In this document: positions 5,813 to 43,411 of the stretch, one piece after another
How positions within the stretch are numbered: the stretch's first letter is position 1
How the letters are laid out: each line of letters starts with the position of its first letter
DNA from: Octopus vulgaris
Lineage: Eukaryota
Assembly (NCBI GenBank): GCA_951406725.2
Contig: OX597822.1
Location: forward strand, 75,144,001-75,208,000
DNA length: 64,000 nucleotides
Reading direction: 5' to 3'
Notes under the pieces: generated by a model
What the model was told of the DNA's origin: nothing
What the model saw: only the letters and a program-made list of their open reading frames with translations
Database searches by the model: none
Made by a program: the position numbers and the translations under genes

Positions 5813-6108
5813 CATAAACATACATACATACATACACACATACATACATACATATATATATACACACACACACACATGTATATACATATATACATACATG
5901 CATATGGGTATCTATATGTCTATGTGGTGCATATATATTTATTTTTTCACACACACACAAGCACATACATACACATGCACACACACACAAACAACAACAC
6001 ACAACACACACACATATATATAGAAACAGACAAACAGACAGAGAGAGAGTTGAATTGAGACAGAACAAAAGAGAGTGATAGCTGTGTGGGAATGTATATG
6101 CATATACA

Positions 6109-6518
6109 CTTTACTCTCTTTTACTTGTTTCAGTCTTTTGACTGTGGCCATGCTGGAGCACCGCCTTTAGTCGAGCAAATCGACCCCGGGACTTATTCTT
6201 TGTAAGCCCAGTACTTATTCTATCGGTCTCTTTTGCCGAACCGCTAAGTGACGGGGACGTAAACACACCAGCATCGGTTGTCAAGCAATGCTAGAGGGAC
6301 AAACACAGACACACAAACATATACACACACATACATATATATATATACATATATACGACAGGCTTCTTTCAGTTTCCGTCTACCAAATCCACTCACAAGG
6401 CTTTGGTCGACCTGAGGCTATAGCAGAAGACACTTGCCCAAGATGCCATGCAGTGGGACTGAACCCGGAACCATGTGGTAGGTTAGCAAGCTACTTACCA
6501 CACAGCCACTCCTGCGCC
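6109..6518 (-). mobile_element. SINE family S1 (tRNA head, CORE-like CTTGGGCAAGTG, internal microsatellite), full copy
   Basis: Near-identical to copies at 13207, 16789, 33947, 50937 and 58143. A-box TGGCTGTGTGG, B-box GGTTCAGTCCC. Confidence 0.9.
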
Positions 6519-6652
6519 TATATGTGCGTGAATGTGCATGTACATATAAATATCTCTGAATAATTAATAAGATACACAAATATGTGTGTGTGTATATGTG
6601 TAGAAGTATATATATATATATATGTACATTTTATCTATGTACATTATATATA

Positions 6653-19022: not shown

Positions 19023-19362
19023 GGTAAAGACCCCCTTCGGTCATGAGTGACCATGGGTTTGCACCTAGAGAGTTACCCTCTGAGGCACAAGTCTGGGCAA
19101 GGTTGTTTTTATGGAAGACCAGTAGTCGCCCATGCATACCGGCCTCCCCTCTCCACGCCACCAGTGTTATCCAAGGGAAAGACAAAGGCCGATACAGCTT
19201 GGCACCTGTGACGTCGCAACTCATTTCTACAGCTGAGTGAACTGGAGCAACGTGATATAAAGTGCCTTGCTCAAGAACACAACACGCAGCCCGGTCCGGG
19301 ATTCGAGCTCACAACCTCACGATCGTAAGCTCGACGCTCTAACCACTGAGCCATGCGCCTCC
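19021..19362 (-). mobile_element. SINE family S3, full copy
   Basis: tRNA head GGAGGCGCATGGCTCAGTGGTTAG...CTCGAATCCCGG, then TTCTTGAGCAAGGCACTT. A second copy lies at 57417-57751. Confidence 0.9.
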
Positions 19363-19423
<61 letters not shown>

Positions 19424-19580
19424 CATATATATATACATATATATATACATATATATATACATATATATATATACATACATATATATACATATATATACAT
19501 ACATACATATATATACATACATATATACATATATATACATACATACATATATATATACATATATATATACATATATATAT

Positions 19581-21473
19581 ACCAAAGACTGGGACCAAAG
19601 ACTGGAGGTGTTTCGTGTTGCAAGACAGTGTGTGAGAGAGAATCGTGATGTGGTAGGAGAGAAGTGTGTTCGCATGGAAGATGGTTCACTTGCGCTAAAT
19701 GAGGATGCAAAGAGAGAGGTTTGGAGATGCCACTATGAAAGGTTGCTGAATGAAGAAAATGAATGGGATAAAGAGAGTCGGCCGAATGTTGACCCAACAG
19801 AGGGACCAGCTATCCGAGTTGATAGTTCTGTGGTAGCTAAGGCAATTAGAAGCATGAAGACAGGGAAAGCCCCAGGCCCATCAGGAATCACTGCAGAGAT
19901 GCTCAAAATGTCTGGTAGTGTCGGCTATAGCCTAGTCACCCATATAGTTAATCAGGTGATACACAAAGGGGTCATACCCAATGACTGGTGTAGCAGTATA
20001 ATAGTCAACTGCTACAAAGGTAAAGGTGATGCCCTAGATACAAACAACTACAGAGGTATCAAGCTGTTGGACCAGGTGATGAAGGTTACGGAGAGGGTCA
20101 TAGCCCAACTAATTAGAGAGAGAGTTAGTTTAGATGAGATGCAGTTTGGGTTTGTGCCAGGGAAAAGTACTACTGATGCTATATTCCTGGTAAGGCAGCT
20201 GCAGGAGAAATACCTAGCCAAAGATAAGCCCCTGTACCTGGCTTTTGTTGACATGGAGAAAGCCTTCGACAGGGTCCCCCGATCCCTTATCTGGTGGGCA
20301 ATGAGAAAACTAGGGATAGATGAATGGTTAGTGAGAGCTGTGCGGGCCATGTATAGGGACGCCGCTAGTAGGGTGAGGGTTGGAAATGAGTACAGTGAAG
20401 AATTCCGGGTAGAGGTAGGGGTCCACCAAGGCTCAGTACTCAGCCCCCTCCTATTTATCATAGTCCTCCAGGCAATAACGGAGGAATTCAAGACAGGATG
20501 CCCTTGGGAGCTCCTCTATGCTGATGACCTTGCTCTAATTGCTGAGTCGCTATCAGAACTGGAGGAGAAGTTTCAGGTGTGGAAACAAGGATTAGAATCG
20601 AAGGGCCTCAGAGTCAATCTAGCTAAAACCAAAGTCGTAATCAGTAGGAAGGTAGACAAATCACAAACACCTTCAGGTAGATGGCCCTGCTCGATCTGTA
20701 GAAAAGGTGTAGGTAGAAACTCTATAAGATGCACCAAGTGTAAGCTATGGACACATAAGAGATGCAGCAATGTCAAAGGAAGGCTAACTAGGAAGATGGT
20801 TTTTGTATGTGGCAGATGCTCAGGAACAATAAACACTGAAAATGCTCTGAGACCAACTTCTGTCACTTTCCAGGGAGAAAAACTAGAAATAGTTGATAGT
20901 TTCCGTTACCTAGGTGACCAAGTCAGCAGCGGGGGCGGGTGTGCTGAAAGTGTAACTGCTAGAGTAAGAATAGCTTGGGCAAAGTTCAGAGAGCTCTTAC
21001 CTCTGCTGGTGACAAAAGGCCTCTCGCACAGAGTGAAAGGCAGACTGTATGATGCGTGTGTACGAACAGCCATGCTACATGGCAGTGAAACATGGGCCGT
21101 GACTGCTGAGGATATGCGTAAGCTCGCTAGAAATGAAGCCAGTATGCTCCGATGGATGTGTAATGCCAGTACTCACACTCGGCAGAGTGTAAGTACCTTG
21201 AGAGAAAAGCTGGACCTAAGAAGCGTCAGTTGTGGTGTGCAAGAGAGACGTTTGCGCTGGTATGGTCATGTGGCGAGAATGGATGAAGATAGTTGTGTGA
21301 AAAAGTGCCACACCCTAGCGGTTGAGGGAACCTGTGGAAGAGGCAGACCCAGGAAAACCTGGGACGAGGTGGTGAAGCACGACCTTCGAACTTTAGGTCT
21401 CACCGAGGAAATGACTAGAGACCGAGACCTCTGGAAGTGTGCTGTGCGCGAGAAGACCCGGCAGGACAAGTGA
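19581..21473 (+). CDS. RTE LINE reverse transcriptase (N-terminally truncated) with internal PHD-type zinc finger
   Basis: Motifs [65 protein letters not shown]; C4HC3 finger at 20688-20819. The first ~76 aa of the listed ORF are microsatellite. Confidence 0.9.
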
Positions 21474-22079
21474 GTCCACAACCCGTGGCCTTCTACATGG
21501 GATGGAGCCAGCCTACGTATGCATACCTTCCCTTCTTGGGACACAAAACTCTACTTGTGAAGACGTGTTGAGGCAAGTGAGGATCAGAATCGAAATCGAT
21601 CAATGGAAATTGCGGATGTGCTACCAGTGCCGGTGGCATGTCGAAACTCTGCTTGTGAAGACCCATTGAGGCAAGTGAGGATCAGAATCGAAATCGATCA
21701 ATGGAAATCGATCAATGGAAATTGCAGATGTGTTACCAGTGCCGGTGGCATGTAAGAGAACCTTCCGTTTCGCGACCGTTGCCAGCACCGCCCCGTTTCG
21801 TGTTCGTTGCCAGCCTCGCCTGGCCCTCGTGCCGGTGGCACATAAAAAACACCATCCGTTCGTGGCCGTTTGCCAGCTCTGGCTGGCACCAGTGCGGGTG
21901 GCACGTAAAAAGCACCCACTACACTCACGGAGTGGTTGGCGTTAGGAAGGGCATCCAGCCGTAGAAACACTGCCAGATTTGACTGGGCCTGATGAAGCCT
22001 TCTGGCTTCACAGACCCCAGCAGAACCGTCCAACCCATGCTAGCATGGAAAACGGACGCTAAATGATGATGATGATGAT
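19581..22079 (+). mobile_element. 5'-truncated RTE-clade LINE with 3' UTR and (TGA)n tail
   Basis: Uninterrupted RT ORF, ~600 nt 3' UTR with internal duplications, microsatellite tail. The endonuclease domain is absent. Confidence 0.95.
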
Positions 22080-22233
22080 ATATACATATATATACATACA
22101 TACATATATATACATATATATACATATATATACATATATATACATATATATATATATACATATATATACATATATATATATATATACATATATATACATA
22201 TATATACATATATATACACATATATATATATAC

Positions 22234-22282
<49 letters not shown>

Positions 22283-22283
22283 C

Positions 22284-22319
<36 letters not shown>

Positions 22320-22380
22320 ATATTTTTATATATGAGGATAATATCGATATTTAAGTATCCATATTATCAAGTGGCCAGGC

Positions 22381-22435
<55 letters not shown>

Positions 22436-22902
22436 TATATTTATAAAAAATGAAGTTCGAAAATGCTGCTATATTATACAATTTTTATATATTATATATT
22501 ATATATTATACAATTTTTATATATACATTATAACATGTTTCAGTTCCTGAAATGAACCTTATCAAAAAAAGTTATATATAACAAAAGACAGCTCATGCCG
22601 TCAAACACAAGAAATTCATTTACAATACACAACGGAGTCAGACATCTTAAAGTTCAAATATAGTTTGAAGTAAGTTCATTCATGCTATATGTTCAAAGTG
22701 TTCGATGCAGTGGCCCACGGTGGCGATACGTATTCAATACAAAAAACAGATCAAAGTGGTGGAAAGCAGTCAATACAGAAGATTGATGTTCCCGAAAGAG
22801 CGAGGAATTCATTTTTACCTTGAGCAATTGTGATGACCCATGGTGGATGTTCGCTGGGTGATTCTAGTGAGTCTTGTGAATTGTTCGGGTTTTATAATGC
22901 CT

Positions 22903-23244
22903 GTTAGGTGGTCAGTCCAGTGTAGTGTGACGTCATCAACGTTTTGACCAATCGTTTCGTTAGGTGGCTTTAGTCAAGCAGAACGGTACGTCATCAACAT
23001 TCTGACCAATCGTGACCTATCGCTATATTATAACTGCCTCTTGTCTGTATCCTGTTTTGACCAGTCGTTTCGTTAGGTGGCTTAGTCAAGCAGGACGGTA
23101 CGTCATCATGATTCTGACCAATCACGACTTATAGCTGTATTAGATCTGCCCCTTTTCGTTAGGTGGCTTAGTCAAGCAGAACGGGACTTCATCAGCATTC
23201 TGACCAATCGTGACCTATCGCTGTATTATAACTGCCTCTTGTCT
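22903..23244. repeat. four diverged 55-115 bp units with CRE-like ACGTCA and CCAAT motifs
   Basis: GTTAGGTGG(C)TTAGTCAAGCAG...ACGTCATCA...TGACCAATCG occurs four times; duplicated at ~29206-29547. Confidence 0.8.
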
Positions 23245-23320
23245 ATACATATATATATATATACATATATATATATACATATATATACATATATATATAT
23301 ATATACATATATATATATGT

Positions 23321-24033
<713 letters not shown>

Positions 24034-24066
24034 CACATATATATATATACATATATATATATACAC

Positions 24067-24141
<75 letters not shown>

Positions 24142-24327
24142 GTTATCGCCATACTAATATGGCATTCTTATAAAATGGAAAGCGGACGTTAAACGATGAT
24201 GATGATGATGATGATGATATATATATATAGATATAGATATATATATATATATAGATATATGCATATATATCTATATATATATATATATATATATTTAGAT
24301 ATAGATATAGATATATATATAGATATA

Positions 24328-24401
<74 letters not shown>

Positions 24402-24483
24402 GGTCCCGGGTTGAGTCGGGGTTAACCACAGTAAATAAGGTACTCAATACATAGCAGAGTAAAGTAATTTATTTTATAGAAGG

Positions 24484-24534
24484 AACTTCTACAGGACTAG
24501 AACTGTTTCATTCAGATGAAATCTTCAGGAAGCT
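24484..24534 (-). ncRNA. type I hammerhead ribozyme (family C, left arm)
   Basis: Reverse complement: agcttc CTGAAGA tttcatctgaat GAAA cag ttctagtc ctg TA gaagtt. Confidence 0.75.
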
Positions 24535-24987
24535 GGCTGTCAAAATAAGGTCTGGTATTTAAACATTTAGGCAGATTTAATGGGGTGGTGGTGGGGGACG
24601 TTTTTCAGGTAAGTTGGTATTTAGGAGATAAACAGGGCACAAGCTATTGTTCTTAGGGGAGTGGTCAAAAGGCCAGAGAGTTTTTGAAATGACAAGAATC
24701 AGTGAGAAAATAAATAAATGAATAAATAGAATAATTGAATAGAATCAGATATATGGGATGGGGTTTTAGGTAAATTAGAAGACAATTGCTTTTTGGTGGT
24801 CAAGAGGAGGTAGTCAGTTTGTTATTGTTAAGTGGAGGGAAGAAATAGATAAATATACATGAAAAAACATATAAAATAAATATACATACAAACACACATA
24901 CATACACATGCGAATATACATATATATACATACATACGCACATATATATACATACAAACATATACATACATATATACAAATATACAT

Positions 24988-25060
<73 letters not shown>

Positions 25061-25405
25061 CATATACATATACATATACATACATGCACCTACATACACG
25101 CACACACATGCACATATATATATACATATATATATTGACCACCAAAAAGCAATTGTCTTCTAATTTACCTAAAACCCCATTCCATATATCTGATTCTATT
25201 CAATTATTCTATTTATTCATTTATTTTATTTTCTCACTGATTCTTCTCATTTCAAAAAACTCTCTGGCCTTTTGACCACTCCCCTAAGAACAATAGCTTG
25301 TGTCCTGTTTATCTCCTAAATACCAACTTACCCAAAAAACGTCCTCCACCACCACCCCATTAAATCTGCCTAAATGTATAAATACCAGACCTTATTTTGA
25401 CAGCC

Positions 25406-25456
25406 AGCTTCCTGAAGATTTCATCTGAATGAAACAGTTATAGTCCTGTAGAAGCT
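25406..25456 (+). ncRNA. type I hammerhead ribozyme (family C, right arm)
   Basis: agcttc CTGAAGA tttcatctgaat GAAA cag ttatagtc ctg TA gaagct: stem I 6 bp, stem III Acag/ctgT, GUA triplet, followed by AATAAA. Confidence 0.8.
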
Positions 25457-25571
25457 CCTTCTATAAAATAAAAAAAAAAAAAAATATATATATATATAGG
25501 GAGAGAGAGAGAGATAAATAGATAGATAGAGAGACAAACAGACACACAGATAGACAGACAGATATGTTCTT

Positions 25572-25952
25572 GTATTCTTTTACTTGTTTCAGCTATTTGA
25601 CTACGGTCAAGCTGGAGCACTGTCTTTCGTCGAACAATTCGACCCGAGAACTTATTCTTTGTAAGCTTAGTGCTTATTCTATCAGTCTTTTTTACCAAAC
25701 TGCTAGGTTACAGGGACGTAAACACACTAATATCGGTTGTCAAGCGATGGTGGGGGTACAAACAAAAACACACAAATACACATACACACATATATATACG
25801 ATGAGCTTCTTTGAGTTTCTGTCCACCAAATCGACTGGTCAGCTTGAGGCTATACTAGAAGACACTTGCCAAAGTTGCCATGTAGGAAGACTGTACCTGG
25901 AACTCACATAGTTGGGAAGCAAGCTTCTTACCACCCAACCACTCCTGTGCCT
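25572..25952 (-). mobile_element. SINE family S1, diverged copy
   Basis: Alignable to S1; duplicated at ~31875-32256. Confidence 0.85.
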
Positions 25953-25980
25953 CTCTCTCTCTAAATATATATATATAATC

Positions 25981-26044
<64 letters not shown>

Positions 26045-26205
26045 CGTATTTTTGCCATTTCAATATGGCTAACCCCTAAGGGTGGATGCTACTGTAGTTT
26101 TTAGCCCCAGGAGGACACACTCCTCCAGCTGGCCATAGACACACTATCTGTGTCCTGTCAGTATTTGCAAAGGGAAGTCATCCTTCCCGTCTTCAACTTA
26201 TGATA

Positions 26206-26250
26206 CACACGGACTCGAGTTTCGAGGTATTGACCTCTCGTCAGCGTGTG
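26206..26250 (-). ncRNA. type I hammerhead ribozyme (family B)
   Basis: Exact reverse complement of 26892-26936. Confidence 0.9.
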
Positions 26251-26558
26251 ACAATCATAGTTGTCGCCGAGAATTAGATTTCCTTCACAAATACTTATAC
26301 TTTTTCCAGCGTCCACTGTCGCTGATATTGAAAAAGTGAAATCAAACAATGATAAATATCAAAGTGAGTTATATACAGTAGCGGTAACACATCGTGACGT
26401 ATTTTTGCCATTTCAATATGGCTAACCCCTAAGGGTGGATGCTACTGTAGTTTTTAGCCCCAGGAGGACACACTCCTCCAGCTGGCCATAGACACACTAT
26501 CTGTGTCCTGTCAGTATTTGCAAAGGGAAGTCATCCTTCCCGTCTTCAACTTATGATA

Positions 26559-26603
26559 CACACGGACTCGAGTTTCAAGGTATTGACCTCTCGTCAGCGT
26601 GTG
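26559..26603 (-). ncRNA. type I hammerhead ribozyme (family B)
   Basis: Same motif with one C>T in stem II, giving a G-U closing pair. Confidence 0.85.
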
Positions 26604-26891
26604 ACAATCATAGTTGTCGCCGAGAATTAGATTTCCTTCACAAATACTGTGTCTATGGCCAGCTGGAGGAGTGTGTCCTCCTGGGGCTAAAAACTACAGT
26701 AGCATCCACCCTTAGGGGTTAGCCATATTGAAATGGCAAAAATACGTCACGATGTGTTACCGCTACAGTATATAACTCACTTTGATATTTATCATTGTTT
26801 GATTTCACTTTTTCAATATCAGCGACAGTGGACGCTGGAAAAAGTATAAGTATTTGTGAAGGAAATCTAATTCGGCGACAACTATGATTGT

Positions 26892-26936
26892 CACACGCTG
26901 ACGAGAGGTCAATACCTCGAAACTCGAGTCCGTGTG
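26892..26936 (+). ncRNA. type I hammerhead ribozyme (family B)
   Basis: cacacg CTGACGA gaggt-caat-acctc GAAA ctcgag TC cgtgtg: perfect stems I and II, palindromic ACTCGAGT stem III, predicted cleavage after C26930. Confidence 0.92.
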
Positions 26937-27337
26937 TATCATAAGTTGAAGACGGGAAGGATGACTTCCCTTTGCAAATACTGACAGGACACAGATAGTG
27001 TGTCTATGGCCAGCTGGAGGAGTGTGTCCTCCTGGGGCTAAAAACTGCAGTAGCATCCACCCTTAGGGGTTAGCCATATTGAAATGGCAAAAATACGTCA
27101 CGATGTGTTACCGCTACTGTATATAACTCACTTTGATATTTATCATTATATATATATATATATATGTGTATGTATATATATATATATATGTGTGTGTGTA
27201 TATATATATCTGTGTATAGTGAGGGTGCGTGGCTTAGTGGTTAGGGTATTCGGCTCATGATCGTAAGGTTGTGAGTTCGATTCCCGGTGACGCGTTGTGT
27301 CCTTGAGCAAGACACTTTATTTCATGATCGTAAGGTT

Positions 27338-28383
27338 GTGAAAGGCAGACTGTATGATGCGTGTGTACGAACAGCCATGCTACATGGCAGTGAAACATGG
27401 GCCGTGACTGCTGAGGATATGCGTAAGCTCGCTAGAAATGAAGCCAGTATGCTCCGATGGATGTGTAATGCCAGTACTCACACTCGGCAGAGTGTAAGTA
27501 CCTTGAGAGAAAAGCTGGACCTAAGAAGCGTCAGTTGTGGTGTGCAAGAGAGACGTTTGCGCTGGTATGGTCATGTGGCGAGAATGGATGAAGATAGTTG
27601 TGTGAAAAAGTGCCACACCCTAGCGGTTGAGGGAACCTGTGGAAGAGGCAGACCCAGGAAAACCTGGGACGAGGTGGTGAAGCACGACCTTCGAACTTTA
27701 GGTCTCACCGAGGAAATGACTAGAGACCGAGACCTCTGGAAGTGTGCTGTGCGCGAGAAGACCCGGCAGGACAAGTGAGTCCACAACCCGTGGCCTTCTA
27801 CATGGGATGGAGCCAGCCTACGTATGCATACCTTCCCTTCTTGGGACACAAAACTCTACTTGTGAAGACGTGTTGAGGCAAGTGAGGATCAGAATCGAAA
27901 TCGATCAATGGAAATTGCGGATGTGCTACCAGTGCCGGTGGCATGTCGAAACTCTGCTTGTGAAGACCCATTGAGGCAAGTGAGGATCAGAATCGAAATC
28001 GATCAATGGAAATCGATCAATGGAAATTGCAGATGTGTTACCAGTGCCGGTGGCATGTAAGAGAACCTTCCGTTTCGCGACCGTTGCCAGCACCGCCCCG
28101 TTTCGTGTTCGTTGCCAGCCTCGCCTGGCCCTCGTGCCGGTGGCACATAAAAAACACCATCCGTTCGTGGCCGTTTGCCAGCTCTGGCTGGCACCAGTGC
28201 GGGTGGCACGTAAAAAGCACCCACTACACTCACGGAGTGGTTGGCGTTAGGAAGGGCATCCAGCCGTAGAAACACTGCCAGATTTGACTGGGCCTGATGA
28301 AGCCTTCTGGCTTCACAGACCCCAGCAGAACCGTCCAACCCATGCTAGCATGGAAAACGGACGCTAAATGATGATGATGATGA
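27338..28383 (+). pseudogene. duplicated 3' part of the RTE LINE
   Basis: Identical peptide to the last ~146 aa of 19581-21473, plus the 3' UTR. Confidence 0.95.
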
Positions 28384-28538
28384 TATATACATATATATAC
28401 ATACATACATATATATACATATATATACATATATATACATATATATACATATATATATATATACATATATATACATATATATATATATATACATATATAT
28501 ACATATATATACATATATATACACATATATATATATAC

Positions 28539-28622
<84 letters not shown>

Positions 28623-28683
28623 ATATTTTTATATATGAGGATAATATCGATATTTAAGTATCCATATTATCAAGTGGCCAGGC

Positions 28684-28720
<37 letters not shown>

Positions 28721-29623
28721 CATATATATATACATATATATATTTATAAAAAATGAAGTTCGAAAATGCTGCTATATTATACAATTTTTATATATTATAT
28801 ATTATATATTATACAATTTTTATATATACATTATAACATGTTTCAGTTCCTGAAATGAACCTTATCAAAAAAAGTTATATATAACAAAAGACAGCTCATG
28901 CCGTCAAACACAAGAAATTCATTTACAATACACAACGGAGTCAGACATCTTAAAGTTCAAATATAGTTTGAAGTAAGTTCATTCATGCTATATGTTCAAA
29001 GTGTTCGATGCAGTGGCCCACGGTGGCGATACGTATTCAATACAAAAAACAGATCAAAGTGGTGGAAAGCAGTCAATACAGAAGATTGATGTTCCCGAAA
29101 GAGCGAGGAATTCATTTTTACCTTGAGCAATTGTGATGACCCATGGTGGATGTTCGCTGGGTGATTCTAGTGAGTCTTGTGAATTGTTCGGGTTTTATAA
29201 TGCCTGTTAGGTGGTCAGTCCAGTGTAGTGTGACGTCATCAACGTTTTGACCAATCGTTTCGTTAGGTGGCTTTAGTCAAGCAGAACGGTACGTCATCAA
29301 CATTCTGACCAATCGTGACCTATCGCTATATTATAACTGCCTCTTGTCTGTATCCTGTTTTGACCAGTCGTTTCGTTAGGTGGCTTAGTCAAGCAGGACG
29401 GTACGTCATCATGATTCTGACCAATCACGACTTATAGCTGTATTAGATCTGCCCCTTTTCGTTAGGTGGCTTAGTCAAGCAGAACGGGACTTCATCAGCA
29501 TTCTGACCAATCGTGACCTATCGCTGTATTATAACTGCCTCTTGTCTATACATATATATATATATACATATATATATATACATATATATACATATATATA
29601 TATATATACATATATATATATGT

Positions 29624-29725
<102 letters not shown>

Positions 29726-30006
29726 TTAATAAGGGTGAGAGAATTAGATACTAATTTAATAGTATACCTATTCAACACCGTTGAATAGGTATACTATTAA
29801 ATTAGTATCTAATTCTCTCACCCTTATCAATTAATTATAATTATGCTGCATTTATTTCTAAATGTAGTATCTGTTTCCGTGAAAGTTTGGCGCGCTGTTG
29901 GTAGGGGCATTTGAATTATAACGTCGGATGTAATCAATTGAACCACACGTGTATTTATCGTTATGGTAAAATCTGGCGTGTGATTGAGTGGATTTCATCC
30001 AGATAG

Positions 30007-30086
30007 TTTTGGCTGAGGAGCTACAAGTGAGTTATTGTGAGTAAAATTACATTTAATTCATTAATAGCGAAACAATTGTCCCAAAA
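30007..30086 (+). ncRNA. type I hammerhead ribozyme (family D, duplicate)
   Basis: Same sequence as 23704-23783. Confidence 0.85.
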
Positions 30087-30244
30087 TAATCTGTATTTTT
30101 GTTATTTTTTATTTGCCCAGTTCGTGTGAGCTAACAATCGTACTGACTTTCATGGGAAACATGTATTTTTGTGGTTGAAACCTATTGGATCTATTACTAG
30201 TGCTAGAGTGAGCCACATAGTGACCACTCTCTTATATTTATTTT

Positions 30245-30312
<68 letters not shown>

Positions 30313-30371
30313 CATATATATATATACATATATATATACACATATATATATATACATATATATATATACAC

Positions 30372-30446
<75 letters not shown>

Positions 30447-30628
30447 TCGCCATACTAATATGGCATTCTTATAAAATGGAAAGCGGACGTTAAACGATGA
30501 TGATGATGATGATGATGATATATATATATAGATATAGATATATATATATATATAGATATATGCATATATATCTATATATATATATATATATATATTTAGA
30601 TATAGATATAGATATATATATAGATATA

Positions 30629-30704
<76 letters not shown>

Positions 30705-30786
30705 GGTCCCGGGTTGAGTCGGGGTTAACCACAGTAAATAAGGTACTCAATACATAGCAGAGTAAAGTAATTTATTTTATAGAAGG

Positions 30787-30837
30787 AACTTCTACAGGAC
30801 TAGAACTGTTTCATTCAGATGAAATCTTCAGGAAGCT
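30787..30837 (-). ncRNA. type I hammerhead ribozyme (family C, duplicate)
   Basis: Same sequence as 24484-24534. Confidence 0.75.
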
Positions 30838-31291
30838 GGCTGTCAAAATAAGGTCTGGTATTTAAACATTTAGGCAGATTTAATGGGGTGGTGGTGGGGG
30901 ACGTTTTTCAGGTAAGTTGGTATTTAGGAGATAAACAGGGCACAAGCTATTGTTCTTAGGGGAGTGGTCAAAAGGCCAGAGAGTTTTTTGAAATGACAAG
31001 AATCAGTGAGAAAATAAATAAATGAATAAATAGAATAATTGAATAGAATCAGATATATGGGATGGGGTTTTAGGTAAATTAGAAGACAATTGCTTTTTGG
31101 TGGTCAAGAGGAGGTAGTCAGTTTGTTATTGTTAAGTGGAGGGAAGAAATAGATAAATATACATGAAAAAACATATAAAATAAATATACATACAAACACA
31201 CATACATACACATGCGAATATACATATATATACATACATACGCACATATATATACATACAAACATATACATACATATATACAAATATACAT

Positions 31292-31362
<71 letters not shown>

Positions 31363-31707
31363 CATATACATATACATATACATACATGCACCTACATACA
31401 CGCACACACATGCACATATATATATACATATATATATTGACCACCAAAAAGCAATTGTCTTCTAATTTACCTAAAACCCCATTCCATATATCTGATTCTA
31501 TTCAATTATTCTATTTATTCATTTATTTTATTTTCTCACTGATTCTTCTCATTTCAAAAAACTCTCTGGCCTTTTGACCACTCCCCTAAGAACAATAGCT
31601 TGTGTCCTGTTTATCTCCTAAATACCAACTTACCCAAAAAACGTCCTCCACCACCACCCCATTAAATCTGCCTAAATGTATAAATACCAGACCTTATTTT
31701 GACAGCC

Positions 31708-31758
31708 AGCTTCCTGAAGATTTCATCTGAATGAAACAGTTATAGTCCTGTAGAAGCT
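31708..31758 (+). ncRNA. type I hammerhead ribozyme (family C, duplicate)
   Basis: Same sequence as 25406-25456. Confidence 0.8.
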
Positions 31759-32284
31759 CCTTCTATAAAATAAAAAAAAAAAAAAAATATATATATATAT
31801 AGGGAGAGAGAGAGAGATAAATAGATAGATAGAGAGACAAACAGACACACAGATAGACAGACAGATATGTTCTTGTATTCTTTTACTTGTTTCAGCTATT
31901 TGACTACGGTCAAGCTGGAGCACTGTCTTTCGTCGAACAATTCGACCCGAGAACTTATTCTTTGTAAGCTTAGTGCTTATTCTATCAGTCTTTTTTACCA
32001 AACTGCTAGGTTACAGGGACGTAAACACACTAATATCGGTTGTCAAGCGATGGTGGGGGTACAAACACAAACACACAAATACACATACACACATATATAT
32101 ACGATGAGCTTCTTTGAGTTTCTGTCCACCAAATCGACTGGTCAGCTTGAGGCTATACTAGAAGACACTTGCCAAAGTTGCCAGTGTAGGAAGACTGTAC
32201 CTGGAACTCACATAGTTGGGAAGCAAGCTTCTTACCACCCAACCACTCCTGTGCCTCTCTCTCTCTAAATATATATATATAATC

Positions 32285-32344
<60 letters not shown>

Positions 32345-32348
<4 letters not shown>

Positions 32349-33453
32349 CGTATTTTTGCCATTTCAATATGGCTAACCCCTAAGGGTGGATGCTACTGTA
32401 GTTTTTAGCCCCAGGAGGACACACTCCTCCAGCTGGCCATAGACACACTATCTGTGTCCTGTCAGTATTTGCAAAGGGAAGTCATCCTTCCCGTCTTCAA
32501 CTTATGATACACACGGACTCGAGTTTCGAGGTATTGACCTCTCGTCAGCGTGTGACAATCATAGTTGTCGCCGAGAATTAGATTTCCTTCACAAATACTT
32601 ATACTTTTTCCAGCGTCCACTGTCGCTGATATTGAAAAAGTGAAATCAAACAATGATAAATATCAAAGTGAGTTATATACAGTAGCGGTAACACATCGTG
32701 ACGTATTTTTGCCATTTCAATATGGCTAACCCCTAAGGGTGGATGCTACTGTAGTTTTTAGCCCCAGGAGGACACACTCCTCCAGCTGGCCATAGACACA
32801 CTATCTGTGTCCTGTCAGTATTTGCAAAGGGAAGTCATCCTTCCCGTCTTCAACTTATGATACACACGGACTCGAGTTTCAAGGTATTGACCTCTCGTCA
32901 GCGTGTGACAATCATAGTTGTCGCCGAGAATTAGATTTCCTTCACAAATACTGTGTCTATGGCCAGCTGGAGGAGTGTGTCCTCCTGGGGCTAAAAACTA
33001 CAGTAGCATCCACCCTTAGGGGTTAGCCATATTGAAATGGCAAAAATACGTCACGATGTGTTACCGCTACAGTATATAACTCACTTTGATATTTATCATT
33101 GTTTGATTTCACTTTTTCAATATCAGCGACAGTGGACGCTGGAAAAAGTATAAGTATTTGTGAAGGAAATCTAATTCTCGGCGACAACTATGATTGTCAC
33201 ACGCTGACGAGAGGTCAATACCTCGAAACTCGAGTCCGTGTGTATCATAAGTTGAAGACGGGAAGGATGACTTCCCTTTGCAAATACTGACAGGACACAG
33301 ATAGTGTGTCTATGGCCAGCTGGAGGAGTGTGTCCTCCTGGGGCTAAAAACTGCAGTAGCATCCACCCTTAGGGGTTAGCCATATTGAAATGGCAAAAAT
33401 ACGTCACGATGTGTTACCGCTACTGTATATAACTCACTTTGATATTTATCATT
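32345..33453. mobile_element. family B inverted hammerhead array (duplicate)
   Basis: Hammerheads at 32510-32554 (-), 32863-32907 (-) and 33198-33242 (+). Confidence 0.92.
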
Positions 33454-33526
33454 ATATATATATATATATATGTGTATGTATATATATATATATATGTGTG
33501 TGTGTATATATATATCTGTGTATAGT

Positions 33527-33850
33527 GAGGGTGCGTGGCTTAGTGGTTAGGGTATTCGGCTCATGATCGTAAGGTTGTGAGTTCGATTCCCGGTGACGCG
33601 TTGTGTCCTTGAGCAAGACACTTTATTTCACGTTGCTCCAGTCCACTCAGCTGGCAAAAATGAGTTGTACTTGTATTTCAAAGGGTCAGCCTTGTCACTC
33701 TCTGTGTCATGCTGATTATCCCCGAGAACTACGTTAAGGGTACACGTGTCTGTGGAATGCTCAGCCATTTGCACGTTAATTTCACGAGCAAGCTGTTCCG
33801 TTGATCGTATCAGCTGGGACCCTCGTCATCGTAACCGGCGGAGTCTTTTA
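33527..33850 (+). mobile_element. tRNA-derived SINE (S3-related), full copy; truncated duplicate at 27221-27324
   Basis: A-box TGGCTTAGTGG, B-box GAGTTCGATTCC, TGTGTCCTTGAGCAAGACACTT...CCACTCAGCTG. Confidence 0.88.
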
Positions 33851-37719: not shown

Positions 37720-39150
37720 TTCTCCAACTAGGGTAATCATATTTTCCCTACTGCAAGACACCTGTACCTGTCCCTCTATCATCTTTTATCTCTCATCATG
37801 TGGCATAAAGCAGTACTATTCAAAGTGGTGGTCAATGGATCGGTGTCGGTCTACGAGCCATCAGCTGCCGGTTATGCAGTGCGTTTCCAGAAAAGAAACA
37901 AACATTATAAAATGCTTATAAAATGCTTATGTAATAATGTATTATTTGTTTACAAAATGAATATAAGATAAAAAAAAAAGTCAACTTTTATTACATTCAT
38001 TATATATATCTCACCTTTATTATATTCATTATATATATATCTCACCTACATGAAAACTGAAGGACACAGAACGCTTGTGTTGCGTAGCCAACTAGAAATG
38101 GTGTTTCTTGGGGCTAAATAACAGTAATATTCTTCCCTTTCCTGGGACTGCCACATTAAGTTGGCAACAAGCCATCACATTATATGTATCAGTTCCGGTA
38201 TAAATTAATATTACTAAGAAATATTACCAGTCCCTGGCACATTGGAAAAAAACTGCAGGTATGTCACATCAGATAGTTTGAAAAGCACTGGCCTAAGGTA
38301 CTTCCTTCAGTATTATGCACTCATTAGTTGAGATGGCTTGTCTTGTGAGTTTCCTTGTAACCTCACTGGTACTGGTGCCATGTAAAAAGCACCCTACATA
38401 CTCAGTAAATTGGTTGGCCTTTGGAAGGGAATACAGCCATAGAAATTGTGTCAAAGCAGAAAATTTGGGGGATGGGGCCAGTCAATTAGATCGACCCCTG
38501 TACACACCTGGTACTTAATTTATCGACCCTGAAGGGATGAAAGGCAAAGTTGAACTCGGTGGAATTTTTAACTATGAACCTAAGGACAGACGAAACATCA
38601 CTAAGCATTTCGACTGGCATGCTAACATTTCTGCCAGCTCACCACCTTTGATGTATATAGATATTATAAAGCATTTTGTTTGATAGTTAAACTTTTCTGC
38701 TACTTCATTGCTTCAATGTTTCTTACAATATTGATCACTTAGCTGAGAAACATTAGATACTACCAACTATCTTACATCAACTCTTGTATTCATAAGAAGC
38801 TGGCAACTGATTGGCCCAGTCAGTTGCCACTCACTATTAAATGTCTGATGAATATATTTTAATGAGACTCATAAATCAGAAATGCTTCAGAAATTATTTA
38901 TCTAACAACACTAGTTTGTTGTAGACATTGCGTTAATATATTTAACACCCATTATAACACAAATAAACGAGATAGAAAATCTTTCTTTTTTATGAGATCC
39001 ATAATGGATAATTTTGGGTAGTAAATTAGTCGACTTGTTTAGAGTAGGAGATAAAATGCATTGGAGTTATTGTCAAAGCTCTTCACTTTCTGAGTTCAAT
39101 CTCATTTGTTATACTTGTGGGGCTGATAAAACATGCTACAGTCAAATACT

Positions 39151-42100
39151 AGGGTCAATATAATGTCTTGGAAAAACTATTTGAGCTCTTCACTTCTGGG
39201 TTCAAATCTTACCACATTCACCCTTACCCGTCATCCTTGTGGGCCACAAGTACCAGGGTCAATATAATGTCTTGGAATAACTATTTGAGCTCTTCACTTC
39301 TGGGTTCAAATCTTACCACATTCACCCTTACCTGTCATCCTTGTGGGGCCACAAGTAATAGGGTCAATATGTCTGGGAATACCTATTTGAGCTCTTCACT
39401 TCAGGGTTCAAATCTTACAACTTACACTCTTACCTGTTATCCTTGTGGGGCCACAAGTATTAGGGTCAATATAATGTCTTGGAATAACTATTTGAGCTCT
39501 TCATTTCTGGGTTCAAATCTTACCACATTCACCCTTACCTGTCATCCTTGTGGGGCCACAAGTAATAGGGTCAATATAATGTCTTGGAATAACTATTTGA
39601 GCTCTTCATTTCTGGGTTCAAATCTTACCACATTCACCCTTACCTGTCATCCTTGTGGGCCCACAAGTACCAGGGTCAATATAATGTCTTGGAATAACTA
39701 TTTGAGCTCTTCATTTCTGGGTTCAAATCTTACCACATTCACCCTTACCTGTCATCCTTGTGGGGCCACAAGTACCAGGGTCAATATAATGTCTTGGAAT
39801 ACCTATTTGAGCTCTTCACTTCTGGGTTCAAATCTTACCACATTCACCCTTACCTGTCATCCTGGTGGGGCCACAAGTAATAGGGTCAATATAATGTCTT
39901 GGAATACCTATTTGAGCTCTTCACTTCTGGGTTCAAATCTTACCACATTCACCCTTACCCGTCATCCTTGTGGGGCCACAAGTAATAGGGTCAATATAAT
40001 GTCTTGGAATACCTATTTGAGCTCTTCACTTCTGGGTTCAAATCTTACCACATTCACCCTTACCTGTCATCCTTGTGGGGCCACAAGTACTAGGGTCAAT
40101 ATAATGTCTTGGAATACCTATTTGAGCTCTTCATTTCTGGGTTCAAATCTTACCACATTCACCCTTACCTGTCATCCTTGTGGGCCCACAAGTAATAGGG
40201 TCAATATAATGTCTTGGAATAACTATTTGAGCTCTTCACTTCTGGGTTCAAATCTTACCACATTCACCCTTACCTGTCATCCTTGTGGGCCCACAAGTAA
40301 TAGGGTCAATATAATGTCTTGGAATAACTATTTGAGCTCTTCACTTCTGGGTTCAAATCTTACCACATTCACCCTTACCTGTCATCCTTGTGGGGCCACA
40401 AGTAATAGGGTCAATATGTCTGGGAGTACCTATTTGAGCTCTTCACTTCAGGGTTCAAATCTTACAACTTACACTCTTACCTGTTATCCTTGTGGGGCCA
40501 CAAGTATTAGGGTCAATATAATGTCTTGGAATAACTATTTGAGCTCTTCATTTCTGGGTTCAAATCTTACCACATTCACCCTTACCTGTCATCCTTGTGG
40601 GGCCACAAGTAATAGGGTCAATATAATGTCTTGGAATAACTATTTGAGCTCTTCATTTCTGGGTTCAAATCTTACCACATTCACCCTTACCTGTCATCCT
40701 TGTGGGGCCACAAGTACCAGGGTCAATATAATGTCTTGGAATAACTATTTGAGCTCTTCATTTCTGGGTTCAAATCTTACCACTTACACCCTAACCTGTC
40801 ATCCTTGTGGGCCCACAAGTAATAGGGTCAATATAATGTCTTGGAATACCTATTTGAGCTCTTCACTTCTGGGTTCAAATCTTACCACATTCACCCTTAC
40901 CTGTCATCCTTGTGGGGCCACAAGTACTAGGGTCAATATAATGTCTTGGAATACCTATTTGAGTTCTTCACTTCAGGGTTCAAATCATACCACATTCACC
41001 CTTACCTGTCATCCTTGTGGGGCCACAAGTACTAGGGTCAATATAATGTCTTGGAATAACTATTTGAACTCTTTCTTTCTGGGTTCAAATCTTACCACAT
41101 TCACCCTTACCTGTCATCCTTGTGGGGCCACAAGTACCAGGGTCAATATAATGTCTTGGAATACCTATTTGAGCTCTTCACTTCTGGGTTCAAATCTTAC
41201 CACATTCACCCTTACCTGTCATCCTTGTGGAGCCACAAGTACTAGGGTCAATATAATGTCTTGGAATACCTATTTGAGTTCTTCACTTCAGGGTTCAAAT
41301 CATACCACATTCACCCTTACCTGTCATCCTTGTGGGGCCACAAGTACTAGGGTCAATATAATGTCTTGGAATAACTATTTGAACTCTTTCTTTCTGGGTT
41401 CAAATCTTACCACATTCACCCTTACCTGTCATCCTTGTGGGGCCACAAGTAATAGGGTCAATATAATGTCTTGGAATACCTATTTGAGCTCTTCACTTCT
41501 GGGTTCAAATCTTACCACATTCACCCTTACCGTCATCCTTGTGGGGCCACAAGTAATAGGGTCAATATAATGTCTTGGAATACCTATTTGAGCTCTTCAC
41601 TTCTGGGTTCAAATCTTACCACATTCACCCTTACCTGTCATCCTTGTGGGGCCACAAGTACTAGGGTCAATATAATGTCTTGGAATACCTATTTGAGCTC
41701 TTCATTTCTGGGTTCAAATCTTACCACATTCACCCTTACCTGTCATCCTTGTGGGCCCACAAGTAATAGGGTCAATATAATGTCTTGGAATAACTATTTG
41801 AGCTCTTCACTTCTGGGTTCAAATCTTACCACATTCACCCTTACCTGTCATCCTTGTGGGCCCACAAGTAATAGGGTCAATATAATGTCTTGGAATAACT
41901 ATTTGAGCTCTTCACTTCTGGGTTCAAATCTTACCACATTCACCCTTACCCGTCATCCTTGTGGGCCCACAAGTAATAGGGTCAATATAATGTCTTGGAA
42001 TAACTATTTGAGCTCTTCACTTCTGGGTTCAAATCTTACCACATTCACCCTTACCTGTCATCCTTGTGGGGCCACAAGTAATAGGGTCAATATGTCTGGG

Positions 42101-43225
42101 AGTACCTATTTGAGCTCTTCACTTCAGGGTTCAAATCTTACAACTTACACTCTTACCTGTTATCCTTGTGGGGCCACAAGTATTAGGGTCAATATAATGT
42201 CTTGGAATAACTATTTGAGCTCTTCATTTCTGGGTTCAAATCTTACCACATTCACCCTTACCTGTCATCCTTGTGGGGCCACAAGTACCAGGGTCAATAT
42301 AATGTCTTGGAATACCTATTTGAGCTCTTCATTTCTGGGTTCAAATCTTACCACTTACACCCTAACCTGTCATCCTTGTGGGCCCACAAGTAATAGGGTC
42401 AATATAATGTCTTGGAATACCTATTTGAGCTCTTCACTTCTGGGTTCAAATCTTACCACATTCACCCTTACCTGTCATCCTTGTGGGGCCACAAGTACTA
42501 GGGTCAATATAATGTCTTGGAATAACTATTTGAGTTCTTCACTTCAGGGTTCAAATCATACCACATTCACCCTTACCTGTCATCCTTGTGGGGCCACAAG
42601 TACTAGGGTCAATATAATGTCTTGGAATAACTATTTGAACTCTTTCTTTCTGGGTTCAAATCTTACCACATTCACCCTTACCTGTCATCCTTGTGGGGCC
42701 ACAAGTAATAGGGTCAATATAATGTCTTGGAATACCTATTTGAGCTCTTCACTTCTGGGTTCAAATCTTACCACATTCACCCTTACCTGTCATCCTTGTG
42801 GAGCCACAAGTACTAGGGTCAATATAATGTCTTGGAATACCTATTTGAGTTCTTCACTTCAGGGTTCAAATCATACCACATTCACCCTTACCTGTCATCC
42901 TTGTGGGGCCACAAGTACTAGGGTCAATATAATGTCTTGGAATAACTATTTGAACTCTTTCTTTCTGGGTTCAAATCTTACCACATTCACCCTTACCTGT
43001 CATCCTTGTGGGGCCACAAGTAATAGGGTCAATATAATGTCTTGGAATACCTATTTGAGCTCTTCACTTCTGGGTTCAAATCATACCACATTCACCCTTA
43101 CCTGTCATCCTTGTGGGGCCACAAGTACTAGGGTCAATATAATGTCTTGGAATAACTATTTGAGCTCTTTCTTTCTGGGTTCAAATCTTACCACATACAC
43201 CCTTACCTTTCATCTTTGTGGGGCC
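39151..43225 (+). repeat. 105-bp satellite, ~39 units, derived from a SINE S2 body
   Basis: The unit TTCTGGGTTCAAATC...CCTGTCATCCTTGTGGGGCC...AGGGTCAATATAATG aligns with S2 TTCTGAGTTCAAATTC...CCTTTCATCCTTTCGGGGTC...GGGGTCGAT. The array is followed by an S2 3' end (CCCCACAAATTTCAGGTCTTATG). Confidence 0.95.
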
Positions 43226-43411
43226 AATAAAACAAAATACTGTCAACTACTAGGATCAATGTCAGAGTTTGTTCTTTCCCCACAAATTTCAGGTCTTATG
43301 TCTCAGTAAGAAATTACCATTTTGGATAAATTAAATTTTCTTAATAGCTTATAATCCGTTTTTCTATTTGATTTTCAAGATTCTTAATGTGAACTTGTGT
43401 GTTGAAATAAG

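What the first reader, a model, noticed from the sequence alone, without database searches (positions are those of the whole stretch)
24399..25484. Family C: 335-bp inverted arms each ending in a hammerhead plus AATAAA
Seen: agcttc CTGAAGA tttcatctgaat GAAAcag..ctgTA gaagct. Stem III is a true hairpin rather than a palindrome. The two differences between the arms within the motif fall in loop III or create a G-U pair in stem I, so the fold is preserved. Stem II is weak, with a U-U closing pair. The minus copy has a ~70 nt tail, while the plus copy ends in a poly(A) run. Inference: a monomer-competent hammerhead in a PLE pseudo-LTR-type end; the locus could also form a long dsRNA hairpin.
Basis: partly seen in the sequence, partly recalled or inferred. 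Interest (0 to 1): 0.7.

Follow-up and report, generated by a model that had tools for sequence, protein, structure and literature searches.

The report
Head-to-head Hydra-clade Penelope retrotransposon ends
The two mirror-image arms are the truncated tail ends of a common Penelope-like jumping gene inserted back to back in a TA repeat; each carries a hammerhead-shaped motif that is likely a self-cutting RNA of a published type, so the locus is ordinary apart from an unusually long loop in the motif, whose effect is untested.

Summary
In detail: 336/338-bp arms, 97% identical, each with a type I hammerhead motif (predicted cut after 25450). The locus is one insertion of a Penelope-like retroelement (PLE): a 737-bp 5'-truncated copy with a 68-nt tail, joined head to head to a 338-bp tailless copy, in (TA)n. 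In other genomic copies the arm follows an RT/GIY-YIG ORF with the Hydra-clade motifs. Hydra hammerheads are published (PMC8557442, File S2); the U-U closing pair, ACAG/CUGU stem III and GUA site are normal there. Relatives covary strongly; within the family there is no two-sided change, but all five subfamily-level changes fall in free positions. The one deviation is an 8-nt loop III (relatives 0-3), apparently a 6-nt duplication that keeps a central palindrome and strengthens both monomer and dimer folds. Monomer competence is unproven, and the arms would bury the motif in dsRNA. The poly(A) run is private to this copy. In 26 of 28 head-to-head pairs exactly one end is tailed, which fits priming from two fixed sites; the pattern is published qualitatively and this scan noted it on other DNA. 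Verdict: new family of a known clade; low interest.

The parts
24399..25135 (-). 5'-truncated PLE copy (737 bp): microsatellite-like 3'UTR, unique 3'UTR, hammerhead motif, AATAAA, tail
24399..24466 (-). 68-nt tail; the same sequence precedes the ORF in full-length copies (5'UTR)
24468..24473 (-). AATAAA at the short (tailless) terminus position; here read through into the tail
24484..24534 (-). Type I hammerhead motif, Hydra type; one private G-U pair in stem I
24804..25135 (-). Apparent spacer: further 3'UTR of the minus copy, (CA/TA)-rich
25135..25472 (+). Inverted, further truncated, tailless copy (338 bp), joined head to head with 1-2 nt overlap
25406..25456 (+). Type I hammerhead motif; predicted cut after A25450 (GUA); private change in loop III
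25447..25465 (+). Predicted 8-bp hairpin over the cut site and the 3' strand of stem I, competing with the active fold
25467..25484 (+). AATAAA plus 15-nt A run, private to this copy
24320..24398 (.). (TA)n target, left flank; no target duplication discernible
25485..25498 (.). (TA)n target, right flank
30702..31787 (.). Second copy of the whole locus in a 6.3-kb tandem duplication (motifs at 30787-30837 and 31708-31758); ends approximate

Best explanation
The locus is a single head-to-head insertion of two 5'-truncated 3' ends of a Penelope-like retrotransposon with Hydra-clade protein motifs, likely made when the element's RT/GIY-YIG enzyme cut a (TA)n target and primed cDNA from both broken ends at two fixed start sites about 68 nt apart. 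Shown: repeat identity, cis linkage to the ORF, two fixed termini, tail = 5'UTR, one tail per pair, conserved hammerhead architecture. Inferred: one cDNA started at the downstream site (tailed copy, 737 nt), the other at the upstream site (tailless copy, 338 nt); both stopped early and were joined at their ends. The hammerhead is inherited cargo from the pseudo-LTR. In full-length tandem transcripts it is likely a weak, dimer- or protein-assisted cutter; at this locus it is likely inert, because a read-through RNA meets the antisense arm first and would zip the motif into dsRNA. The 8-nt loop III likely arose by a 6-nt tandem duplication in an ordinary CAG-NN-CUG stem III.
For: 40 of 40 scored hits (of 1012 candidates) are 94-100% identical to the arm. 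The arm lies downstream of an RT/EN ORF in L031 and of the ORF's 3' end in L032-L034, L036, L037. A sister subfamily has an open 713-aa ORF with RWR, DKT, YRDD, CxCX5C, YIG, CxxC and CxH and no GxKF/Y, matching the Hydra definition. The tail runs into the ORF in all copies classed T>BODY. 57 of 77 related metagenome loci carry the same hammerhead type in sense, 2 antisense, 0 in 20 shuffles. With a sequence-only anchor, nine stem positions pair in 51-55 of 55 motifs with several pair types; 0-1 of 2000 shuffles reach that. In 115 family copies the five subfamily-level changes lie at N7, loop II (3) and loop III (1). One tail per pair in 26 of 28 pairs. Mates are closer than non-mates (median 7 vs 14 differences; a rare shared variant in 7 of 8 pairs vs 46 of 938). 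Run X15 shows contig ends into (TA)n at both termini (21 and 65 contigs). Two RT start sites, cleavage and extension of both strands, and a protein-assisted ribozyme are shown for another PLE (PMC11167929).
Against: No tree with published Hydra sequences was built. Pfam gave no RT or GIY-YIG hit for P0001, only GIY-YIG in 1 of 3 homologues scanned, and the PDB profile search found nothing, so the domain calls rest on motifs. Units are 4.3-7 kb, longer than the '<3 kb' typical of Hydra. No two-sided change within the family. 2 of 28 pairs look tailless at both ends. The window pair is the one pair of 8 without a rare shared variant. Gene conversion between arms could also make mates alike. PMC3846280 prefers self-priming on an antisense template for inverted junctions.
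Confidence: 0.85

Rival explanations
1. The family's hammerhead is a competent monomeric, co-transcriptional ribozyme: the longer loop III lets it cut alone in a brief window before the downstream hairpin displaces stem I.
For: Loop III is 8 nt here against 1-3 nt in 25 of 25 published Hydra families and 0-3 nt in 50 of 51 metagenome motifs (the one 16-nt case looks mis-parsed, and one search found no long-loop candidate). Stem III hairpin -1.4 kcal/mol vs median +2.1, range -1.3 to +6.0. P(stem I) 0.91 at the motif's end, 0.04 nine bases later.
Against: P(stem II) 0.00-0.01 and P(stem III) at most 0.12; the active fold lies about 3 kcal/mol above the MFE. The dimer duplex is also strengthened (-12.8 vs median -7.5), and one subfamily extends the palindrome (-15.2). 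Metazoan PLE hammerheads tested so far were weak or needed protein. The folding model also disfavours most relatives (median gap 4.5 kcal/mol), so it cannot decide.
Confidence: 0.25
2. The inverted structure arose by fold-back self-priming (on an antisense template) or by later DNA-level inverted duplication, not by priming at both target ends.
For: Proposed for rotifer Penelopes (PMC3846280). Mates resemble each other. Some short pairs have near-palindromic junctions.
Against: Plain copying of one arm should reproduce the same terminus, yet 26 of 28 pairs differ at their termini, each landing on one of two fixed sites followed by (TA)n.
Confidence: 0.2
3. A non-autonomous foldback or DNA-transposon-like element with 335-bp terminal inverted repeats, or a host-selected hairpin RNA gene.
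For: Long inverted arms at both ends; predicted MFE of the 1086-nt locus -624.5 kcal/mol.
Against: Interiors of other pairs are PLE 3'UTR and ORF of variable length; the ends are asymmetric; many copies occur without a mate; the arms differ at 9 sites with private changes.
Confidence: 0.04

Closest known systems
Hydra clade of C-terminal EN+ Penelope-like elements (Craig et al. 2021, PMC8557442; passages, supplement parts 2-3 and supplement search hits read)
   Same: RW[K/R], DKT, CxCX5C, CxxC/CxH, (TA)n target, inverted 5'-truncated copy at the 5' end, tail often at one end; hammerheads with U-U at 10.1/11.1 (14 of 25), ACAG-NN-CUGU stem III (4 of 25), GUA site (11 of 25); counts made by hand from File S2.
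   Different: Not one of the listed families (Hydra-1_Obim has another N terminus and another hammerhead); 8-nt loop III; 68-nt tail rather than 30-40; long microsatellite-rich 3'UTR.
Poseidon of Anolis carolinensis, PAc (Frangieh et al. 2024, PMC11167929; parts 1-2 of 4 read)
   Same: Tail defined by two RT start sites; AT-rich target; both strands cut and extended; hammerhead at the pLTR-ORF junction.
   Different: Other clade; minimal hammerhead overlapping the ORF start, whereas here motif and tail lie upstream of the ATG; strict one-tail-per-pair pairing not counted in the parts read.
Metazoan PLE minimal hammerheads (Cervera and de la Pena 2014, PMC4209133; parts 1-2 of 4 read)
   Same: Type I motif in pLTRs; dual motifs 100-700 bp apart on opposite strands already noted.
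   Different: Those have a G10.1-C11.1 pair, long stem II and minimal palindromic stem III; a large helix III was reported for fungal and protist PLEs.
Adineta Pen2a (Arkhipova et al. 2013, PMC3846280; passages read)
   Same: [quoted passage not shown]
   Different: Penelope clade, 31-bp tail, target duplications; explained there by self-priming.

Membership tests
EN+ Penelope-like elements | Single ORF with RT and C-terminal GIY-YIG endonuclease linked to the repeat | tested here: met
   L031 (frameshifted, window-type arm in cis) and L081 (713 aa open, sister subfamily); YRDD 347, YIG 603. By motif and by eye against the published alignment; Pfam silent on P0001.
EN+ Penelope-like elements | pLTR repeated before and after the ORF; inverted truncated copy at the 5' end; optional tail | tested here: met
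Hydra clade | RWK-type motif, DKT instead of DKG, GxKF/Y not conserved | tested here: met
   RWR 38, DKT 116, no G.K[FY] (definition)
Hydra clade | CxCX5C linker; CxxC and CxH in the EN; no CX2-5CxxC | tested here: met
   CNCHDKTTC 567, CDLC 667, CMH 695; CX2-5CxxC absent. Absence of CCHH judged by eye.
Hydra clade | Insertion into (TA)n | tested here: met
   Most termini listed are followed by (TA)n; a few by (CA)n or other sequence
Hydra clade | Generally short (<3 kb) | tested here: not met
   pLTR-to-terminus 4.3-7 kb owing to a microsatellite-rich 3'UTR; the paper gives this as a tendency, not a diagnostic
Hydra clade | Phylogenetic placement of the RT | not tested
   Published sequences could be read in the supplement but not handed to the tools
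Type I hammerhead ribozyme | Core CUGANGA / GAA / NUH with three stems | tested here: met
   Rfam models do not detect it
Type I hammerhead ribozyme | Covariation of stems across homologues | tested here: met
   Across 55 motifs from related elements; within the family only conservation, no two-sided change
Type I hammerhead ribozyme | G10.1-C11.1 pair of canonical hammerheads | tested here: not met
   U-U in 115 of 115 copies; shared with 27 of 55 relatives
Type I hammerhead ribozyme | Self-cleavage | not testable with these tools
   Only contigs, no raw RNA reads
Non-LTR retrozyme | Tandem non-coding units each with a hammerhead | tested here: not met
   Two inverted truncated copies that trace to a coding element (definition)

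The most novel reading that the evidence does not exclude
A 6-nt duplication turned a dimer-only Hydra hammerhead into a dual-mode ribozyme that cuts as a monomer only in a short co-transcriptional window and is then shut by its own downstream hairpin; and the one-tail-per-pair rule records an asymmetric PLE dimer copying one RNA from two start sites onto both ends of the break.
Probability: 0.2. Interest if true: 0.5.

Novelty: new member of a known kind. Interest (0 to 1): 0.22.

Why it matters
The locus itself is retrotransposon debris. The family has two modest uses. Hydra-type hammerheads with a U-U closing pair were predicted but, in the papers read, not assayed, and this long-loop form allows a clean monomer-versus-dimer comparison with its short-loop relatives. 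Near-intact young elements with two sharp termini and a near-strict pairing rule give a ready test of how PLEs make inverted insertions, a step still unexplained.

Tried and rejected
Rfam: no hammerhead hit on the motif. RNA evidence: no RNA holder on record was listed; all laid runs were contigs, which cannot show cleavage ends, strand or editing. The depth peak over motif and tail appears equally in X15, so it is not read as expression. A>G differences match paralogue variants (e.g. 24485 is the family-majority base) and are not read as editing. Poly(A) as a retrotransposition mark: rejected. AATAAA as a clade-wide signal: 7 of 54 related motifs vs 8.6% background, rejected. A shared tail hairpin (seen in this family and one sister family): 3 of 54 vs 2% background, not general. 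A downstream anti-stem-I hairpin as a general feature: 1 of 54, not general. An alternative GUC cut site inside loop III was rejected by hand: no matching stem I. The MAFFT alignment was not used (one row on the wrong strand, long-loop rows out of register); one search replaced it. PDB profile search: 0 hits. The paper on dimeric small PLE hammerhead variants (DOI recalled) is not held, so its variants were not compared. Literature searches for an assay of Hydra hammerheads or for a counted one-tail rule found only the papers cited; bioRxiv supplements and subscription papers were not visible.

Full report
Observation. The arms are at 24468-24803 (minus) and 25135-25472 (plus), with 9 mismatches and 2 gaps in 338 columns. 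Each holds a type I hammerhead motif at 24484-24534 and 25406-25456; a descriptor of equal strictness found none in 200 shuffled windows. The predicted cut falls after A25450. Rfam does not detect the motif. The locus lies between (TA)n tracts and recurs in a 6.3-kb, 99.6% tandem duplication. The sequence between the arms aligns to other copies up to 25135 (314 of 320 bases with L034; the purely microsatellite-like part scores 318 and 360 against two copies but only 219 against a third, with controls up to 229). So the minus copy is about 737 bp and abuts the plus copy directly.

What it belongs to. The arm is a dispersed repeat: 1012 candidates, the 40 scored ones 94-100% identical. In fetched loci it follows an ORF or the ORF's 3' end, and a copy of the motif plus tail precedes the ORF, which is the pseudo-LTR layout. 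The ORF with a window-type arm in L031 is frameshifted; a sister subfamily (L081) has an open 713-aa frame. It carries RWR, DKT, YRDD, CxCX5C, YIG, CxxC and CxH and lacks GxKF/Y and CX2-5CxxC, the features given for the Hydra clade (PMC8557442, passages), and by eye it fits the published Hydra alignment. 1080 of 7993 scored candidates are homologous at E<=1e-20. Against: Pfam names no RT or GIY-YIG domain in P0001, no tree was built, and the units are longer than typical Hydra elements. The listed octopus family Hydra-1_Obim is a different family. That the genome is a cephalopod's is my impression from its repeats, not a tested result.

The hammerhead. File S2 of PMC8557442 lists hammerheads for 25 Hydra families; by my hand count 14 have U-U at 10.1/11.1, 4 have ACAG-NN-CUGU, 11 cut after GUA, and all have a loop III of 1-3 nt. 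In 77 related metagenome loci the same type occurs in sense in 57, in antisense in 2, and in none of 20 shuffles. Anchored on sequence alone, 55 motifs pair at nine stem positions in 51-55 cases each with several pair types, and 0-1 of 2000 partner shuffles reach that; 10.1/11.1 does not pair more than chance (U-U in 27). That shuffle ignores relatedness, but the best-ranked proteins of this group are only about 40% identical to the query. In 115 full, ungapped genomic copies the nine core positions show 5 non-majority cells in all; the changes that mark subfamilies sit at N7, three loop II positions and one loop III position; two stem I edge positions also vary in 4-5 copies, partly at truncation junctions; there is no two-sided change. 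The 24 nt upstream are only 11/24 identical between the two main subfamilies (hand count), though a 3'UTR swap could explain that.

What is different. Loop III is 8 nt. The sequence reads as a near-tandem 6-nt repeat, which suggests a duplication in an ordinary stem III (inference). The majority loop keeps a central CUAG. The computed stem III hairpin is -1.4 kcal/mol (relatives: median +2.1, best -1.3) and the self-duplex -12.8 (median -7.5); the plus arm's private change weakens the duplex to -6.0. The active fold is about 3 kcal/mol above the MFE, stem II is hardly populated, and nine more bases allow an 8-bp hairpin over the cut site that drops stem I from 0.91 to 0.04. The model disfavours relatives as well, so monomer competence is neither shown nor excluded. 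Tested metazoan PLE hammerheads were weak or protein-dependent (PMC4209133; PMC11167929). At this locus a transcript from either strand contains the antisense arm before the sense motif, so a long duplex is predicted to bury it (inference).

The ends. Copies end at two fixed sites: at the AATAAA, or 68 nt further on, nearly always followed by (TA)n; contigs of run X15 show the same two ends. Long A runs occur only in this copy and its twin, 2 of 36 scored tailless, so the poly(A) is best read as local slippage. Head-to-head pairs with both ends resolved: 19 and 2 from coordinates, all with one tailed and one tailless end; two of them (C8, C22) share a junction and are counted once, giving 20. 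I then fetched 14 loci whose far end was unknown: 6 followed the rule, 2 looked tailless at both ends (one runs into non-TA sequence, one is an 82% match), 6 stayed unresolved. Total 26 of 28 (binomial about 1.5e-6 at p=0.5, my arithmetic). Two convergent pairs, both tailed, were left out as not head to head. One pair of a sister family follows the rule too. Mates are closer than non-mates, as expected from one template or from conversion; the window pair shares only subfamily variants.

Mechanism. For an anole PLE, the protein cuts AT-rich DNA, extends both strands and starts reverse transcription at two internal sites whose distance is the tail (PMC11167929). Applied here (inference): both ends of a break in (TA)n primed cDNA, one at each start site; both copies stopped early and were joined. 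A tail on one of the inverted pLTRs is published (PMC3846280; PMC8557442); a count of it was not found in my searches. Earlier notes of this scan report the same rule in other families of this genome; I had counted it before reading them, and they are not used as evidence.

Verdict. A real feature, correctly read as a PLE hammerhead end, belonging to an unlisted family with the marks of the published Hydra clade. The U-U pair and 4-bp stem III are the clade's norm; only the longer loop III is unusual, and its effect is untested. Interest 0.22.

Noticed in passing
window 26038-27147 and 32342-33453: A second tandem-plus-inverted repeat with canonical palindromic-stem-III hammerheads (26206, 26559 minus; 26892 plus); Rfam Hammerhead_1 32.2 bits, below the gathering score of 34.
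   Followed up: no
window 21033-27324 / 27338-33630: 6.3-kb tandem duplication at 99.6% identity; real or assembly artefact not tested.
   Followed up: no
window 19350-21470 (+): Open frame with an RT motif (YADD), resembling an RTE-type LINE (label recalled; not scanned).
   Followed up: partly
window 39143-43226: Satellite array of about 105-bp units, about 94% alike.
   Followed up: no
window 23420-23530 and its duplicate near 29730: Near-perfect palindrome of about 110 bp directly after a (TA)n tract.
   Followed up: no
window 6083-6520 and about ten other places: Dispersed repeat of about 440 bp, 75-90% alike, one copy just right of the finding (25568-25952).
   Followed up: no
L083-L086, L100: Sister family with Hydra-like N-terminal motifs, about 49% identical there, with many open 727-aa frames; hammerhead with A-A at 10.1/11.1, 2-bp stem II, 72-nt tail, AATAAA at the short end.
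   Followed up: partly
L032 2800-6900: A different PLE (779-aa frame, RVT_1 hit) nested in the microsatellite-like 3'UTR of this family.
   Followed up: partly
L130 and L125: Two convergent (tail-to-tail) pairs, both ends tailed, 222 and 367 bp apart.
   Followed up: no
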